This document shows positions 15,957-31,546 of a stretch of 64,000 nucleotides of DNA, piece by piece. Source of the stretch: a virus. The position numbers and the translations under genes were made by a program. The DNA lies in the IMG/VR virus record IMGVR_UViG_2773857891_000002. One strand, given 5' to 3'. Under the pieces are notes generated by a model that saw nothing but the letters and a program-made list of their open reading frames with translations, was not told the origin of the DNA and ran no database searches. The number at the start of each line of letters is the position of its first letter. The stretch's first letter is position 1.

Positions 15957-18333
15957 ATGAGCACCGAATTGGCTACAGCGTACCTGACTCTAATCCCGTC
16001 TTTGAAGGGCGCGTCTAAGCAAATTTCATCTGAGCTTGCGGGCGTGAATGTTTCCGGGGCCGGGCGAAGATGGGGAAGAACCTGTCTGGTGGCATTAGCA
16101 AGGGCATGAACCTGCAGATTATTGGTGCCCGGCTGCAGGACCTGGGGGCGAACATTTCTCGCGTGGGGGATTCGCTTACCAATTCTATTACGAAGCCCGC
16201 TGTGGGGGCTGCAGCTGCGGTCGGTGGCATCGCGATTGCTTTGGGGTTTAAGCGCCTTGTAGGGATTGACACCGCGCGCGCGAAGCTGATGGCGCTGGGG
16301 CACGACGGGGAATCTATTACCGACATTATGAACTCTGCCCTGGAATCGGTGAAGGGCACGTCTTACGGCTTGGGGGATGCTGCGACTATCGCCGCGTCCG
16401 CTGTCGCTGCCGGTGTTACCGCCGGTGAGGACCTGACGAAATACCTGTCTAGCACTGCTGACGCTGCTGCGGTCGCAGGCACGAGCCTGTCGGAGATGGG
16501 TTACATATTCAACCAAGTTCAGACTGGGACGGTCGCGTACACGGACTCCCTTAACCAACTCGCTGACCGTGGTATCCCGATTTATCAGTGGCTAGCGGAC
16601 GAATTGAATGTCACTGCGGGTGAGGTGAAGAAACTCGCTTCTGAGGGAAAGATTTCCAGCGAAGAGTTCTTTAAGGCGATTGATAAGAATATCGCTGGCG
16701 CTGCCCGCACTATAGGTCAAAACAGCGTTATGGGGGCATGGGAAAACACCAAAGCTGCTCTTGGACGTTTAGGTGCCGCTTTCCTTGGTGCAGGTGAAGA
16801 TGGCGGCGGTTTCTTCGGCCAGATTCAACCTTTACTGGTCGAACTGATGGGGAAGATGGATGAGCTCGCACCGAAAGCAGAAGAGCTAGGCCGGAAGTTC
16901 GGGGAGTTTTTCGAAACTCTAGTTGGGCATATTCGGTCAGCTGTTTCTTGGTGGGAATCTTTGGACCAGAAAACCCAATCCACGATTTTGAAGATGGTGG
17001 GTATTGCGGTTGTTTTGGGTCCTGTCCTGAAAATCGTCGGCAGTTTGACGTCTGGGGTTGGGCTTCTACTGACCTCGTTTGGCCGTTTGGGCGGGTCTAT
17101 GGGATCGGCGTCTGCTGGGGCTACTGGTCTTGGCAGCGCGGTTTCTAGGCTCGCTGGCCCAATCGCTCTCGTTGTTGCTGCGATTGCTGGGATGTGGACT
17201 AATTCTGAGAAGTTCCGTACTTCGGTTGAGGCTTTGGGTGCTTCGGCGGCGACGGCTTTTGAGGAAGTGTATGCGGCTTTGCAGCCTACTCTCGCTTTGA
17301 TTGGTGAGCAGTGGGGGCCGCTCATGAAGTCTTTGGGCGATTCAATGGCGGACGTTTTTGAGTCATTGTTGCCAACGATTGAATCAGTGGTTTCCGCGTT
17401 GGGCACTGTTATTGAAGCGTTGACACCGGTTATTAACTTCCTTCTGTTGACGTTTATTGGTGCCCTTGGTTCGGCAGCTCAAACAGTTTCACAGGTCATC
17501 ACCTACATTTCTGGGACTGTGCAGTGGTTGGCCGGTAACCTGCAGGATTATGTAAACATGATTTCCGCGCTGTTCCGTGGGGACTGGTCTGCCGCTTGGG
17601 GTTACGCGAAAAGTATCGCGTCGCGTAATTTGCAGCAGCTAAAGGACACGGTCAAGGTAGTTTGGGATATCATTGTTGGTTATTTCCGTACTGCTGGTGC
17701 CCAGGTTGAGGCGATCACCGGTGTTTCGATTTCCGATGTGAAGGCGGCGTTTTCTCGTGGTTTGACGAACATGAAGAAGGCCGCTCTTGATCGTCTTAAC
17801 GCTATTGTCAATGATTTCCGTAACTTCAAATCGCGTGTGAAGGCTGCGTTTGGCAACCCTAGCGGTTTGCTGCGCGGGTTGGTCGAGCGATCATTGACGG
17901 CCTGTGGGCGGGTATTAAGTCTGGGATCGGCAAGATTGAGGCTGGTCTTAGGGACCTCACATCGAAGATCCCTGATTGGAAGGGGCCTAAAGAAAAAGAC
18001 CGGAAACTTCTGACTGAGGCAGGCCGCCTAATCATTGGTGGTTTCCGTGAGGGCTTGGAGTCCCAGTATTCGGGGGTTCGTGATTCTCTATTTGGTTTCA
18101 CGGACTCATTAGTCGGCGGGGTTTCTGGGGTTTCTGGCCCTCGAATGGTTGTTTCTGGTATGCCTGCGTCAGGGCCTGTTATCGCCGGTCCTAGCGGTTC
18201 TCGTGGTTCGCGGTCTGATTTAGATTATTTAGCTGATCGGATTGTGGATGGTTTATCGGGGATCGCTGCGGCTTCTGGGATGTCAGCCGATTTGCTCGGT
18301 GGGTCGCGCCGTAGGGTCCGGGCCGGTTTCTGA
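15957..18333 (+). CDS. Tape measure protein (two apparent sequencing frameshifts in this copy)
   Basis: Intact 792-aa copy at 55120-57498; G3 vs G4 at 16062 and 17876. Confidence 0.9.
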
Positions 18334-27619: not shown

Positions 27620-28754
27620 CCGGCTAGCGGAGAAAACAGCGAAGTCTCGGGCGCACATTGAGGTGGATTCTACGGGCGCGGATGTCACTGACGTGCCCGT
27701 GGAGGGCACCCTTGATGGGGATTGGGGTGCGCTAATCCGCCATTTTGGCCTTGATCCTGATGCTTTTGAGGTTGTGGATGACACGGTGCGAATGTCGATG
27801 CGGGAGCACCCAACAGGCGACAAGGGGTGGCTTTCGTCATACTCGGCGCGCTTCCGTAAGATTCGCCACGAGATGATCCGCCCGGAAGTCCTACAAAGGT
27901 GGCGTGACGACCTCACGGACTGGGAGCCGGACCCTATCTCCCATGTGGAGCAGGACCACACTTACCTGGTGCTGGTCGCTGATCCGCAGCTTGGGAAAAA
28001 GGGCACTCAGGAGGCTGTGGAAAACTGGCGGCGCGGGGTGTCTGCGCATGTCAGGCAGATACGGGCTTTGAAGCCTGCGCGGGTGCATGTCGCTTTCATG
28101 GGCGATGAGACGGAAGGTGCCTGCAACAATTACGCCAACCAACCACACACGATAGAACTGAATCAGTCCCAGCAGCTGGAATTGGACTTCGATATGCGCG
28201 TGTGGACGATCAAGCAACTTCTCGCGACTGGTCTGCCTGTATCCGCATCGTCTGTGATATCCAACCACGGCGAATGGACACGTAACGGCAGCAAAGACCC
28301 CGTGACCAGCAGCAACGACAACGCGAGCACCCACATCGCCCGTATGACGCAACGGCTTTTCCATGAGCTAGGTCACGACATTGAGTGGACCATCGGGGAA
28401 ACCCACCCCGGCATCACCCTCACCTTGGGTGGTGTGGAGTGCTATTTCTCCCACGGATACAAGGAAAAGGGCCGGGGAACGTCCACGGAGACGCGCACCA
28501 GGGCGGCGATTGAACGGCAAATCCTAGGCCGCACAGAAGAACTCGGCACAACGAAACTGTGGTTCATGGCGCACTACCACCACTTCTACACCCAAGAATT
28601 CGAGGGCCGCACACTCTTTGGGTGCCCTGCTCTTGAGGCGGAAAGGTCGAGCGAGTACATGCTCGACCAGTACGGTGTGTGGTCACCGCCGGGGATGCTC
28701 GGGATGCTTGTGGGTGGCAGTGGGAGGGGGTGGCAAAATGCCAACGTCTTTTGA
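27606..28754 (+). CDS. Calcineurin-like metallophosphoesterase (MRE11-like)
   Basis: ADPQLG, MGDETEG, SNHGE, SHG and AHYHH variant motifs I-V. Confidence 0.82.
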   Translation: MALSDRLAEKTAKSRAHIEVDSTGADVTDVPVEGTLDGDWGALIRHFGLDPDAFEVVDDTVRMSMREHPTGDKGWLSSYSARFRKIRHEMIRPEVLQRWRDDLTDWEPDPISHVEQDHTYLVLVADPQLGKKGTQEAVENWRRGVSAHVRQIRALKPARVHVAFMGDETEGACNNYANQPHTIELNQSQQLELDFDMRVWTIKQLLATGLPVSASSVISNHGEWTRNGSKDPVTSSNDNASTHIARMTQRLFHELGHDIEWTIGETHPGITLTLGGVECYFSHGYKEKGRGTSTETRTRAAIERQILGRTEELGTTKLWFMAHYHHFYTQEFEGRTLFGCPALEAERSSEYMLDQYGVWSPPGMLGMLVGGSGRGWQNANVF

Positions 28755-28881
28755 GTGCCCCGAGTGCCTGACGCCTTTCCCGTCTCAGGCGGCTGCTGAC
28801 CGGTGTGCCATGTGGTGCGGGGGAAGCGAACCCAACCACGAGAAGTATCGTCCGCGCCGCTGGGATGATTACGACGAATAA
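28738..28881 (+). CDS. small zinc-ribbon protein (47 aa)
   Basis: CPEC...C..WC; overlaps the phosphoesterase stop. Confidence 0.6.
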   Translation: MPTSFECPECLTPFPSQAAADRCAMWCGGSEPNHEKYRPRRWDDYDE

Positions 28882-28885
28882 CACA

Positions 28886-28915
28886 AGCGCCCCCACCCTA
28901 ACCGGTGGGGGCGCT
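28886..28915. terminator. Bidirectional terminator between convergent operons
   Basis: AGCGCCCCCACC-ctaacc-GGTGGGGGCGCT, 12-bp stem. Confidence 0.8.
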
Positions 28916-28923
28916 ATTCGTGT

Positions 28924-29331
28924 TTACGGGGCCTTCGCTTCTATGTGCACATACTCCACAGCGAACTCCACCCCTGACATATGCGCGTACAATGCAGCCT
29001 GCTGTATGGCCGAAGAGTACATGCTCCAGGGGAGACCAGATTTACCGTCTGTCGCCGTGAGAAATGACGCCTCATTCTTGAAAACGATGAGATCGATTGC
29101 CCTGCCGGTGTCAGCTGCGAGGTCGATCTGCTCCATTTCCCCTTCAAGGAATTTGTCGTAACGGTCCACCATTTCCAGCAGGTAGGTCACTGCGTGGGCG
29201 GGTGGGGTTATTGTTGCGCACCATCTTTCTACAGAGCGTTTGCCGTGCGCGCCTAGCCCAAGCGCAGAGGCAATGGTTTGCTGCTCTAACCCAATAGCCG
29301 AGCGAAGCGCATTGAAAGTAGCCGGATTCAT
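28924..29331 (-). CDS. Aca2/YdiL (DUF1870)-like HTH repressor
   Basis: MNPATFNALRS..RSVERW..P..V..LLEM N-terminal HTH, and LIVFKNEASF..W.MY.SA C-terminal pattern matching Aca2/YdiL as I recall them; AGGAG RBS. Confidence 0.7.
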   Translation of the reverse strand: MNPATFNALRSAIGLEQQTIASALGLGAHGKRSVERWCATITPPAHAVTYLLEMVDRYDKFLEGEMEQIDLAADTGRAIDLIVFKNEASFLTATDGKSGLPWSMYSSAIQQAALYAHMSGVEFAVEYVHIEAKAP

Positions 29332-29349
29332 AGTTCTCTCCTAAGAAAG

Positions 29350-29377
29350 ATGGCCCCCACCCGGAGGTGAGGGCCAT
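29350..29377 (-). terminator. Intergenic hairpin/attenuator between candidate acr and aca
   Basis: ATGGCCC-t-CACC-tccg-GGTG-g-GGGCCAT followed by CTTTCTT on the minus strand. Confidence 0.6.
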
Positions 29378-29386
29378 AGGTGATGG

Positions 29387-29632
29387 TTAGTTTCGGGTGA
29401 TTTCCTTGACGAAGTTCTTCACGTCTTGGGTATTCATCGGACGTTCGGTTTTCCCTGTCCAGATGGTTTCGTTGCTCTCGAGGTCTTTGATGGTCAGGCC
29501 TTGCGCCCCGCCGTTGACGACGATGATTTTGAATGCTGCGATGGTTTTTTGTGGGAAGCCTTCAACGATGGTGACCTGCGCGGTGTAGTTGGTGGTGTTG
29601 CCGGTTTTGTTGAAGATGATTGCTTGTGCCAT
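29387..29632 (-). CDS. 81-aa unknown protein; candidate anti-CRISPR/anti-defence protein
   Basis: GGAAGGA RBS before ATG 29632; first gene after a strong promoter; directly upstream of the Aca2-like gene. Confidence 0.7.
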   Translation of the reverse strand: MAQAIIFNKTGNTTNYTAQVTIVEGFPQKTIAAFKIIVVNGGAQGLTIKDLESNETIWTGKTERPMNTQDVKNFVKEITRN

Positions 29633-29693
29633 GGTTCCGGTCCTTCCGGGTTGTGCGGCCTGTGGACTGTTGTCCTGCCGTCTTGATGTTTCT

Positions 29694-29723
29694 ATTCTAT
29701 GACGGTTGAACCGACATGCGCAA
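29694..29723 (-). promoter_or_regulatory. Sigma70 promoter with palindromic operator in the spacer
   Basis: TTGCGC-18 bp-TAGAAT; spacer contains ATG-t-CGGTT-c-AACCG-t-CAT. Confidence 0.75.
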
Positions 29724-29797
29724 GTGGTGAGCGGGTGAAAACAAGTCAACCCAAAAACCCTGACACCACAAAATCAACCCCCACAACTTGACACCTG

Positions 29798-31231
29798 TCA
29801 CCCAGCAAGTAAAACCGCAGCCCTCGCCAAGAAAATCGACTTATCAGCAGGCTCCAAAGCCGCAAAGGCGCCCAGCAGATCATCCACACTTACACCTGGC
29901 ATCGGAGCTGGAGCGACCTCCACACCCGGAGCTGCCCCCATCAGCTGAAGCCTTTGCCCCACGGCCTCCATCGCCTCACGGGCAAGCTCCATACTCACAT
30001 GCTGATACTGCTGGGTCGTGACAATCTCGGAGTGCCCCATAATCTCCTTGATTGTCTTGGGGTCAATCCGCATATGAAGCAGGAGACTCGCGGTGGTGTG
30101 GCGTATCTCGTGGATGACATACCTTTGCCCACCGACTTCTTTGCCGTCCACAATCGTGGGTGGGGTCTTCCAGATACCAAGCTCTTCTTGGATCGCGGCC
30201 CACTCCGCCCGGTCGGCGGCCATGTTTTGCGGCTCGCCTGTCGCTCTAGGCCACACTAGATTACCTTCACTGCGCGGGCAGTGCTCTTTCCATACCTCGA
30301 GCATCTTCGCGAGCACGGGGATCATGGGCGCGAGTCGGTAGCCTGAGTCGGATTTGAGCTCTACGAGGTGGAAGGAGCCCCATAGCTGCTGGGACTTGTG
30401 GCCGTGGGGGACGCGGAAGCCGCTGGTCTGGTCGTAGGCCACATTGTAGGGGAGGTTTTGGAGCTGCCAGGAGATCGTGAAGTAGGATTCTTCGAGGTGT
30501 ACGCGGTCCCATGTCATGCCGAGCGCTTCGCCTTGACGCATGCCCTCAAGAAAAGCGGCGAGCCACCTGGAAGCGAATCCTGCTTTCTGGGGGTCGGCGT
30601 CGACTAGCCTGCCGAGGTGTCGCACGACTTTGAGTGCGTCTTCTAGTGGGAGGTCGCGCCGGTCGTGCGCTGATTTCGCGGGCTTCTTGACAAGGAGCAC
30701 TGAGTCTGGGACACGGTAGCCTTCTGCGATTGCTGCCCTGAGCGCGCTTTGAAATTGCCCAAGCACAGTCCCCGCGTAGGTCGTGCTCTTCCCACCATCC
30801 AGCATCGCTTTCACTATTGCTTTGGCGTGACTCGCCTCGAGGTCTTGAAGCTGCACCCTCCCGACGATGGGGATCATCCACCGCGTGACGTAGGTGCGGG
30901 TCCCGTTGAAGGTCTTAGGGCGCACGCGGGTCTGCTCTGCCTCGAGCCATTCCTTCAACCACGCCCCGACTGTCTTCGAGCGGGATTTCGCAGCGGCGCG
31001 ACCTTCCAACATCAGCCGCTTGCGTCGCACCTGGAATTTGTCCCACGCTATGTCTTCGTCTTTGTGTGAGACGTAGATGCGCTTTCGGGTGCCTAGTGCG
31101 CTGTCTCCTATTTCGATGCTTCCACGCCACATGCCGCTTGGCTCGTGCCACCGGAAGGAGCCTTCCCCGTGCTTGGGGATGTGACTTTTTTTGGGTGTCT
31201 TGCCGGTGTCCTGAGTCGATTTTCTGGCCAT
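29798..31231 (-). CDS. int: Tyrosine integrase
   Basis: GMRQGEALG (R), HEIRH (HxxR), MGHS...TTQQY (H/Y). Confidence 0.95.
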   Translation of the reverse strand: MARKSTQDTGKTPKKSHIPKHGEGSFRWHEPSGMWRGSIEIGDSALGTRKRIYVSHKDEDIAWDKFQVRRKRLMLEGRAAAKSRSKTVGAWLKEWLEAEQTRVRPKTFNGTRTYVTRWMIPIVGRVQLQDLEASHAKAIVKAMLDGGKSTTYAGTVLGQFQSALRAAIAEGYRVPDSVLLVKKPAKSAHDRRDLPLEDALKVVRHLGRLVDADPQKAGFASRWLAAFLEGMRQGEALGMTWDRVHLEESYFTISWQLQNLPYNVAYDQTSGFRVPHGHKSQQLWGSFHLVELKSDSGYRLAPMIPVLAKMLEVWKEHCPRSEGNLVWPRATGEPQNMAADRAEWAAIQEELGIWKTPPTIVDGKEVGGQRYVIHEIRHTTASLLLHMRIDPKTIKEIMGHSEIVTTQQYQHVSMELAREAMEAVGQRLQLMGAAPGVEVAPAPMPGVSVDDLLGAFAALEPADKSIFLARAAVLLAG

Positions 31232-31260: not shown

Positions 31261-31343
31261 GCGACGGTATTCTGACGATACCGTGAGGGCGTGTAATCCG
31301 CATAATCTCGCGGTTTCTTACGTCTCAGTCTACCTTATGCTTA

Positions 31344-31391
31344 CGACTGAAAATCGAAAGGTCACCGGATCGATGCCGGTCGGAGCCACCA
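31344..31391 (+). other. attP core = 3' part of tRNA-Phe(GAA)
   Basis: CGA-CTGAAAA-TCG anticodon arm, ACCGG-ATCGATG-CCGGT T arm, CGGAGCCA-CCA end; the 5' half of the tRNA is absent. Confidence 0.85.
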
Positions 31392-31395
31392 CCCC

Positions 31396-31429
31396 GGGAG
31401 CCGCTAGAAATAGCGGCTCCCATTCTTTT
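31396..31429 (+). terminator. Intrinsic terminator for the reconstituted tRNA
   Basis: GGGAGCCGCTA-gaaa-TAGCGGCTCCC followed by ATTCTTTTT. Confidence 0.85.
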
Positions 31430-31464
31430 TGCCCTGAGGTCGTCACGACCCAAAAGAAGGCCAT

Positions 31465-31486
31465 TACCTCCATTACTACCCACATT
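31465..31486. repeat. Integrase arm-type repeat (right)
   Basis: 22-bp identity with 31239-31260. Confidence 0.75.
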
Positions 31487-31546
31487 CAAAGTCAATTGCG
31501 CACCCACGCTACATAGGCGTAATCCCCGCGATAGATTTCACAAATC

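What the first reader, a model, noticed from the sequence alone, without database searches (positions are those of the whole stretch)
28886..29723. Candidate anti-CRISPR/anti-defence operon: unknown 81-aa gene plus Aca2-like repressor
Seen: a self-contained leftward unit wedged between the lysis/phosphoesterase operon and the integrase. It runs promoter, 81-aa ORF (29632-29387, MAQAIIFNKTG...KEITRN, beta-rich, no motif I recognise), hairpin, 135-aa HTH ORF (29331-28924), then a bidirectional terminator. Knowledge: Aca2/YdiL (DUF1870) proteins have an N-terminal HTH (MN...L.ALR...SW..WE...P..V...LL.M) and a C-terminal 'RFF/Y....F.......W..Y.S.A' segment. The 135-aa protein shows both patterns when compared with my recollection of those sequences. 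aca genes typically follow acr genes and repress the strong acr promoter. Inference: the 81-aa protein is an uncharacterised Acr or other anti-defence protein of an actinobacterial phage.
Basis: partly seen in the sequence, partly recalled or inferred. Interest (0 to 1): 0.9.

Follow-up and report, generated by a model that had tools for sequence, protein, structure and literature searches.

The report
Aca2-type repressor operon with orphan cargo
A prophage of a small actinobacterium carries a self-contained two-gene unit in which a near-orphan 81-residue protein sits in front of a genuine relative of the anti-CRISPR-associated repressor Aca2; this makes the small protein a reasonable but unproven candidate inhibitor of bacterial immunity.

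Summary
All of these are present at the stated coordinates: promoter, 81-aa ORF, hairpin, 135-aa HTH ORF and bidirectional terminator.

**The 135-aa protein** is a true two-domain member of the Aca2/YdiL family.
- Pfam PF08965 scores 25.3 bits against a 23.8 cut-off.
- A profile of it hits solved Aca2 structures at 4e-12.
- The AlphaFold model matches only Aca2, YdiL and SO3848.

**Regulatory signals.** A 19-nt palindrome fills the -35/-10 spacer and is unique in the lysogen genome. A diverged allele has a different palindrome at the same place. The 5' UTR folds into two hairpins in all alleles.

**The 81-aa protein** has no family, no significant fold match and only one distant homologue (52% identity). 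That homologue is also followed by an Aca2-like gene. Both genes are under purifying selection.

**Anti-CRISPR remains untested.**
- The lysogen has no Cas1, Cas2, Cas3 or type I-E repeats.
- A congeneric genome has type I-E CRISPR-Cas. It has spacers matching this phage family, one of them inside the small-gene family.
- A sibling prophage carries a mini-GNAT plus another HTH gene in the same slot.

My odds are about 0.4 for anti-defence cargo and about 0.15 for anti-CRISPR specifically. The scan has already reported similar Aca2-like operons on other DNA.

The parts
29725..29797 (-). Conserved upstream block (about 90 nt in relatives). It holds the direct repeats GGTGTCAAG (29795-29787) and GGTGTCAGG (29767-29759), and TTGACT (29749-29744).
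   Evidence: It is nearly identical upstream of three different cargo sets: the window, L024 and prophage 2 of G001. The repeat occurs only here in the window. Its function is unknown.
29694..29723 (-). Promoter: -35 TTGCGC (29723-29718), 18-nt spacer, -10 TAGAAT (29699-29694).
   Evidence: The -10 boxes TAGAAT, TAGGCT and TATAGT fall in the same alignment column in three loci. The strict consensus scan did not call it.
29699..29717 (-). Operator candidate: a 19-nt palindrome ATGTCGGTT-C-AACCGTCAT, with 8 of 9 arm positions pairing.
   Evidence: It is unique in the window at up to 3 mismatches and in the whole lysogen genome at up to 2. It is conserved in near alleles. In L024, whose regulator is only 28% identical, the same spot holds a different palindrome, TGCCGTA-AAC-TATGGCA.
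29637..29680 (-). 5' UTR with two hairpins. HP1 (29680-29656) has a lower stem CGGC/GCCG and a covarying upper stem. HP2 (29649-29637) is CCGG-AAGGA-CCGG, with the Shine-Dalgarno sequence in the loop.
   Evidence: Three alleles fold independently to the same architecture. The HP1 upper stem reads GGAC/GTCC, GAGG/CCTC and GGG/CCC in the three.
29387..29632 (-). 81-aa cargo gene (P0002): soluble, predicted as five beta-strands plus a C-terminal helix. Near-orphan.
29350..29377 (-). Intergenic 12-bp hairpin followed by CTTTCTT; a possible attenuator or mRNA stabiliser.
   Evidence: The stem is conserved and the loop varies in L028-L031. It is absent in L024, where the two genes overlap (ATGA).
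28924..29331 (-). 135-aa Aca2/YdiL-family HTH regulator (P0001).
28886..28915 (.). Bidirectional intrinsic terminator shared with the convergent plus-strand Zn-ribbon ORF.
   Evidence: It is conserved in L031 and L024.

Best explanation
This is an autonomous accessory operon (a 'moron') of a roughly 39-kb temperate siphovirus-type prophage. The host is a 2.75-Mb actinobacterium, probably Jonesia denitrificans, though that identification is from memory only.

Shown:
- A host-type promoter drives an orphan 81-aa soluble protein and then a 135-aa regulator of the Aca2/YdiL family.
- The promoter spacer is filled by a palindrome that occurs nowhere else in the genome.
- The leader RNA folds into two hairpins, and the second holds the ribosome-binding site.

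Inferred:
- The regulator binds the palindrome as a dimer and shuts off its own operon after an initial burst, as Aca2 does for acrIF8-aca2.
- The intergenic hairpin lowers the regulator dose relative to the cargo.
- The cargo is most likely a protein inhibitor of a host immune system.
- The most concrete candidate target is the type I-E CRISPR-Cas system found in the same genus.

I put the regulatory architecture at about 0.8 confidence. The anti-defence function of the cargo is about 0.4, and that is the figure given below.
For: Regulator identity:
- PF08965 scores 25.3 bits against a 23.8 cut-off, covering 1-119 of the protein and 1-114 of 118 model positions.
- The L024 partner passes independently at 25.0 bits.
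- Profile A2 hits Aca2 7ezy at 4e-12 and 7b5j at 2e-9, full length.
- The AF2 model (pLDDT 89.5) has a top 10 made up only of SO3848, Aca2 and YdiL, at TM 0.65-0.78; after that E rises above 1.

Operator:
- The palindrome is unique.
- It changes together with the regulator in L024.

Leader:
- Three alleles give the same two-hairpin fold, with compensatory changes in the upper stem.
- This parallels the DNA-motif-plus-5'-UTR-hairpin layout described for aca operons (PMC13551039).

Cargo:
- It is small and soluble, with no family.
- dN/dS is 0.10-0.19.

Mobility and slot:
- The pair travels as a unit next to different integrases or next to a tRNA end.
- In a sibling prophage the same slot holds a phage-type mini-GNAT plus another HTH gene.
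- Upstream partners of homologous regulators differ: Corndog gp77 and Streptomyces loci.

CRISPR pressure:
- The congeneric genome G402 has type I-E cas genes and 64 spacers.
- Spacer C8_6 matches the 77-aa gene at 26 of 32 positions, with AAC on the PAM side.
- Three more spacers match prophage-2 late genes at 24-25 of 32.
- 1920 shuffled spacers never exceeded 24.
Against: - No similarity to any known Acr or anti-defence protein, in sequence or in fold.
- The lysogen genome is complete in one contig and has no Cas1, Cas2, Cas3-HD or I-E repeats. No self-targeting argument is therefore possible.
- Aca2-fold regulators also sit in non-acr contexts: YdiL and SO3848 (PMC8434428), and gp76 of lytic Cluster O mycobacteriophages. 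From memory, the host of those phages, M. smegmatis, has no CRISPR-Cas.
- The cargo is better conserved than the regulator (52% against 28%).
- The location at the prophage end is also typical of lysogenic-conversion and prophage-defence genes.
- Only one of the five AF2 models of the cargo was confident.
- HP1's lower stem is identical in L024 although the operator differs. This argues against the regulator reading HP1 with its DNA specificity.
Confidence: 0.4

Rival explanations
1. A toxin-first type II toxin-antitoxin, abortive-infection or prophage-encoded defence module. The 81-aa protein would be a toxin or effector, and the HTH protein its antitoxin and autorepressor, as in HigBA or MqsRA. 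It would be expressed from the lysogen to exclude other phages or to stabilise the prophage.
For: - Small protein followed by an HTH autoregulator, with its own promoter and terminator, at the prophage end beside int/att.
- Weak HTH-level similarity to MqsA and HigA-2 antitoxins.
- The first gene is more conserved than the regulator, as is common for toxins versus antitoxins.
- Allelic cassettes with conserved flanks.
Against: - No match to any toxin family in Pfam, NCBIfam or PADLOC, nor by fold.
- The Aca2 fold accounts for residues 1-128 of 135, which leaves no spare neutralising domain.
- A strong hairpin between the genes would favour excess 'toxin' over 'antitoxin' message. That suits a cargo/repressor pair better (inference).
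- The binding test could not be run.
Confidence: 0.2
2. An accessory gene unrelated to immunity. The cargo would be, for example, a modulator of host physiology or of phage development that merely uses an Aca2-fold autorepressor for dose control.
For: - The family occurs with varied or no partners: YdiL stands alone, SO3848 sits with an SMI1/KNR4 protein (PMC8434428), and Corndog gp76 ends a long operon.
- The cargo has no informative similarity of any kind.
- The lysogen has no CRISPR-Cas.
Against: - Very narrow distribution and allelic turnover at a fixed slot are more typical of conflict genes.
- CRISPR spacers show that the phage family is under immune pressure in the genus.
Confidence: 0.3
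3. The 81-aa protein is an excisionase or recombination directionality factor, or otherwise part of the integrase module, since it lies directly downstream of int on the same strand.
For: It is co-directional with int and starts 166 nt after int's stop codon.
Against: - The same pair sits beside a different, divergently oriented 260-aa integrase that has its own HTH_17 Xis-like neighbour (L028).
- In L029 and L030 it sits beside a tRNA end with no integrase.
- It has its own promoter and operator.
- The predicted fold has no winged-helix or HTH element.
Confidence: 0.03

Closest known systems
acrIF8-aca2 operon of Pectobacterium phage ZF40 (Aca2; PDB 7b5j, 7vjo-7vjq; also 7ezy, 8w35)
   Same: - Small first gene, then an Aca2-fold HTH regulator, in a prophage.
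- An inverted repeat overlapping the promoter.
- A structured two-hairpin 5' UTR that includes the ribosome-binding site.
- The regulator shares both the HTH domain and the C-terminal alpha/beta dimerisation domain (PMC6765145, PMC8434428, PMC13551039).
   Different: - About 18-22% identity to solved Aca2 proteins.
- Actinobacterial host.
- The cargo is unrelated to any Acr.
- The lysogen has no CRISPR-Cas.
- The operator sequence is unrelated.
- There is a strong intergenic hairpin.
- DNA and RNA binding are untested.
YdiL (Salmonella, PDB 1s4k) and SO3848 (Shewanella, PDB 2ox6)
   Same: Same two-domain fold. SO3848 is the top structural match, at TM 0.75-0.78.
   Different: Both are chromosomal, not in prophages, and of unknown function. 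SO3848 carries extra helices (PMC8434428).
gp76 of Cluster O mycobacteriophages (Corndog and relatives), annotated 'HTH DNA binding protein'
   Same: - 135 aa and a full-length homologue (hhalign 97.9%, E 3.7e-13, 120 columns).
- Preceded by a small 79-aa gene and lying next to the lysis genes.
   Different: - It is the last gene of a long operon in lytic phages.
- The upstream gp77 is unrelated to the 81-aa protein.
- It does not reach the PF08965 threshold.
Toxin-first type II TA systems with HTH antitoxins (HigBA, MqsRA)
   Same: Gene order (small protein, then HTH autorepressor), size range, and residence on mobile elements.
   Different: - No toxin fold or family match.
- The regulator's C-terminal domain is the Aca2 dimerisation domain, not a toxin-binding domain.
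- The HTH similarity is only generic.

Membership tests
Aca2/YdiL (Pfam PF08965, DUF1870) | Sequence match to the family model above the curated threshold | tested here: met
   25.3 bits against 23.8, E 1.8e-5, nearly full length. The L024 partner scores 25.0 bits. The margin is small: a six-frame genome-wide scan of G001 did not list it at E<=0.01.
Aca2/YdiL (Pfam PF08965, DUF1870) | Two-domain fold: N-terminal HTH, long helix, C-terminal beta-alpha-alpha-beta dimerisation domain | tested here: met
   AF2 pLDDT 89.5 and pTM 0.81. The top 10 Foldseek hits are only 2ox6, 7ezy, 7vjo/p/q, 7b5j and 1s4k, at TM 0.65-0.78 and probability 1.00. The profile hit to 7ezy is 4e-12.
Aca2/YdiL (Pfam PF08965, DUF1870) | Homodimer that binds an inverted repeat in its own promoter (autorepression) | tested here: inconclusive
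   A unique 19-nt palindrome lies in the -35/-10 spacer and changes together with the regulator. A palindrome this good anywhere in the intergenic region arises in 8.6% of shuffles; exactly within the spacer it arises in 0.055%.
Aca2/YdiL (Pfam PF08965, DUF1870) | Binding of 5' UTR RNA hairpins (translational repression) | not testable with these tools
   Two conserved hairpins exist, and one holds the Shine-Dalgarno sequence. However, HP1's lower stem does not co-vary with the operator in L024.
acr-aca operon (functional class) | An aca-family gene downstream of a small gene in one operon on a mobile element | tested here: met
acr-aca operon (functional class) | The upstream protein inhibits a CRISPR-Cas system | not testable with these tools
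   No homology to known Acr proteins. The AcrIF24 N-terminal domain scores Z 4.7-4.8, which is at noise level.
acr-aca operon (functional class) | The host carries CRISPR-Cas, ideally with a self-targeting spacer | tested here: not met
   G001 has no Cas1, Cas2, Cas3-HD or I-E repeats. The congeneric G402 has type I-E with spacers to this phage family but does not carry the cassette.
Type II toxin-antitoxin | The first protein belongs to a known toxin family or fold | tested here: not met
   Pfam, NCBIfam, PADLOC, Foldseek and VIA-align gave nothing significant.
Type II toxin-antitoxin | Direct toxin-antitoxin complex | not testable with these tools

The most novel reading that the evidence does not exclude
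The 81-aa protein founds a new-fold family of anti-CRISPR (type I-E) or other immune inhibitors from actinobacterial phages. Its divergent Aca2-like partner would show that Aca2-type control by a promoter palindrome plus a structured leader, and therefore aca guilt-by-association, extends into Actinomycetota.
Probability: 0.15. Interest if true: 0.7.

Novelty: new member of a known kind. Interest (0 to 1): 0.45.

Why it matters
To my knowledge, anti-defence genes of actinobacterial phages are almost uncharted. A validated inhibitor here would have three consequences.
- It would add a new protein family.
- It would confirm that Aca2-fold regulators can be used as search handles in this phylum.
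- It would provide a matched natural system: a CRISPR-free lysogen, plus a congeneric type I-E host whose arrays already hold spacers against this phage family.

Even if the cargo is not anti-defence, the locus is a compact example of cassette exchange. A fixed 'slot' with a conserved upstream block holds swappable cargo-plus-regulator pairs.

Tried and rejected
**Searches for relatives**
- INPHARED phages gave nothing by DNA or by the 81-aa protein.
- IMG/VR, JGI metagenomes and GTDB genomes gave no further relatives of the 81-aa protein. It was also not found in the other 200 genomes sampled from the host's family.
- The exact spacer was not found in IMG/VR.
- The HMMER search of 1.84 billion representatives gave one real homologue (P0014), a fragment, and a 1215-aa repeat protein (P0015, E 6.7e-4). 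I judge P0015 a periodic beta-strand artefact, because the match spans repeat boundaries.

**Fold searches for the 81-aa model**
- PDB, BFVD, AFDB clusters, VIA-wide and the ESM Atlas gave nothing significant. The best Z was 6.1, below the usual noise of 7-8.

- No RNA-seq run was listed.
- Rfam gave nothing.

**Readings rejected**
- The 120-aa extended ORF from TTG 29749: its extra part is the conserved promoter region.
- The excisionase reading: see the rival explanations.
- I tested whether the operator half-site recurs in the hairpins. Only a short GACGG overlap was found, and it is not convincing.

**Not verified**
- The organism name (Jonesia denitrificans) rests on my memory of the genome size and accession numbers. 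No tool confirmed it.

Full report
**Observation**

- -35 TTGCGC at 29723-29718, an 18-nt spacer, and -10 TAGAAT at 29699-29694.
- An 81-aa ORF at 29632-29387, preceded by GGAAGGA.
- A 12-bp hairpin at 29377-29350 (dG -25.5 kcal/mol, z -4.4).
- A 135-aa ORF at 29331-28924, preceded by AGGAGA.
- A 12-bp, GC-rich terminator at 28886-28915, called on both strands.

Upstream lies a tyrosine integrase at 29798-31231. Downstream, converging on the same terminator, lie a small Zn-ribbon-like ORF and a 406-aa gene that follow the lysis genes.

**Setting**

The window is a 39.16-kb phage genome present about 1.6 times head to tail.
- The same DNA lies at 100% identity in a complete 2.75-Mb single-contig genome, G001.
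- Public records place it as a prophage with the integrase at its end.
- I believe the host is Jonesia denitrificans, but this rests on memory.

**The regulator**

The 135-aa protein is a genuine member of the Aca2/YdiL family.
- It passes PF08965 (Aca2_YdiL) narrowly, at 25.3 against 23.8 bits, over almost its whole length.
- A profile built from it and four relatives hits solved Aca2 chains full length: 7ezy at 4e-12 and 7b5j at 2e-9. Two rows of that profile were picked with PF08965, so it is not fully independent. The window protein and the L024 protein each pass Pfam on their own.
- The AlphaFold model (pLDDT 89.5) has an HTH, a long helix and a beta-alpha-alpha-beta domain.
- Its ten best PDB matches are only SO3848, Aca2 and YdiL, at TM 0.65-0.78, followed by a cliff.

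The family is rare in the class.
- PF08965 was found in 5 of 401 genomes sampled.
- Full-length matches to the actinobacterial profile were found in 4 of 401.
- gp76 of the Cluster O mycobacteriophages is also a full-length homologue.

**Control elements**

A 19-nt palindrome fills the promoter spacer, with 8 of 9 arm positions pairing.
- It occurs nowhere else in the phage or in the lysogen genome.
- By itself, a palindrome this good somewhere in the 165-nt intergenic region arises in 8.6% of shuffles. Exactly within the spacer it arises in 0.055%.
- Near alleles keep the core CGGTTCAACCG.
- The distant allele L024, whose regulator is only 28% identical, has a different palindrome at the same place between aligned -35 and -10 boxes.

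The leader folds into the same two hairpins in three alleles.
- The upper stem of the first hairpin changes by compensatory substitutions.
- The second hairpin presents the Shine-Dalgarno sequence in its loop.
- This mirrors the layout described for aca operons (PMC13551039).
- The invariant lower stem does not track the operator change.

**The cargo**

The 81-aa protein has no match in Pfam, PHROGs, NCBIfam or PADLOC.
- Among 5.8 billion clustered proteins, only near-identical copies exist.
- Among 1.84 billion representatives there is one real homologue, P0014, at 52% identity.
- P0014 is immediately followed by an Aca2_YdiL gene, with an ATGA overlap.
- dN/dS of 0.10-0.19 shows that the gene is constrained.
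- The model is five strands plus a C-terminal helix, but only one of five models was confident.
- No library gave a significant fold match.

**Mobility and the slot**

The pair occurs in several contexts.
- Beside a 477-aa integrase.
- Beside a different, divergently oriented 260-aa integrase.
- Beside a tRNA end.

A second prophage in G001 shares the flanks and a roughly 90-nt upstream block. Its cargo, next to tRNA-Thr, is a phage-type mini-GNAT plus a 199-aa protein with an HTH-like C-terminal part. From memory, a small GNAT can act as an anti-CRISPR (AcrVA5). This is a lead, not a test.

**CRISPR context**

- G001 has no Cas1, Cas2, Cas3-HD or I-E repeats.
- Cas1 is present in 8 of the 25 same-family genomes searched.
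- The other species of the genus, G402, has a full type I-E locus with 64 spacers.
- One spacer matches the 77-aa gene of L024 at 26 of 32 positions. AAC lies on the PAM side, and its C agrees with the repeat's last base. The spacer encodes a third allele of the conserved NY.A.VTI motif.
- Three other spacers match prophage-2 late genes at 24-25 of 32.
- Shuffled spacers reached at most 24 in 1920 trials.

This phage family therefore meets type I-E immunity in the genus. That makes an Acr plausible, but it does not identify the gene.

**Verdict**

The structure and the Aca2 assignment are sound. The Acr claim remains guilt by association.

| Reading of the cargo | Odds |
|---|---|
| Anti-defence of any kind | about 0.4 |
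| Anti-CRISPR specifically (included in the row above) | about 0.15 |
| Toxin-antitoxin or defence module | about 0.2 |
| Other accessory function | about 0.3 |

The scan has already reported several similar Aca2-like operons on other DNA.

Noticed in passing
window 1-64000: The window is a 39,163-39,166-bp phage genome repeated head to tail about 1.63 times. The copies differ by 1-3-bp indels: for example, the ORF at 16070-18013 is 647 aa in one copy and 792 aa at 55120-57498 in the other. This is either a concatemer or tandem assembly with indel errors, or real variants.
   Followed up: partly
window 29725-29797; L024 333-400; L002 2791-2859: A block of about 90 nt with 2-3 direct repeats of GGTGTCARG(G) and a TTGACT is nearly identical upstream of three different cargo sets. 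Downstream of it the sequences diverge. Its function (UP-like element, a second regulator's site, or a recombination handle) is unknown.
   Followed up: partly
G001:C1 2,363,500-2,364,900 (L002 1733-2704; L005 8740-9711): A sibling prophage holds, in the same slot next to tRNA-Thr, a 111-aa phage-type mini-GNAT followed by a 199-aa protein with a phage-specific N-terminal domain and an HTH-like C-terminal part.
   Followed up: partly
G402:C1 1-10824 and C8 1-2340 (L032, L034): A congeneric genome has a type I-E CRISPR-Cas locus and two arrays with 64 spacers. Four spacers match this prophage family at 24-26 of 32 positions, one of them inside the homologue of the 81-aa gene.
   Followed up: yes
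window 28738-28881 (+): A small 47-aa ORF with CxxC...C..W-C spacing (Zn-ribbon-like) converges on the shared terminator. It is 96% conserved in prophage 2 and is also present in L031. It has no Pfam or PADLOC match.
   Followed up: no
L027 (Mycobacterium phage Corndog 47488-48193): Cluster O mycobacteriophage gp76 (135 aa, 'HTH DNA binding') is a full-length homologue of the Aca2-like regulator. It is preceded by an unrelated 79-aa gp77 with a weak LSM-like hit.
   Followed up: partly
window 31330-31500: The intergenic region between the integrase start and the ImmA/cI-like genes translates like the 3' part of a tRNA (…GIDPVTFRF…), although ARAGORN finds no complete tRNA. It is probably the attP core.
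   Followed up: no
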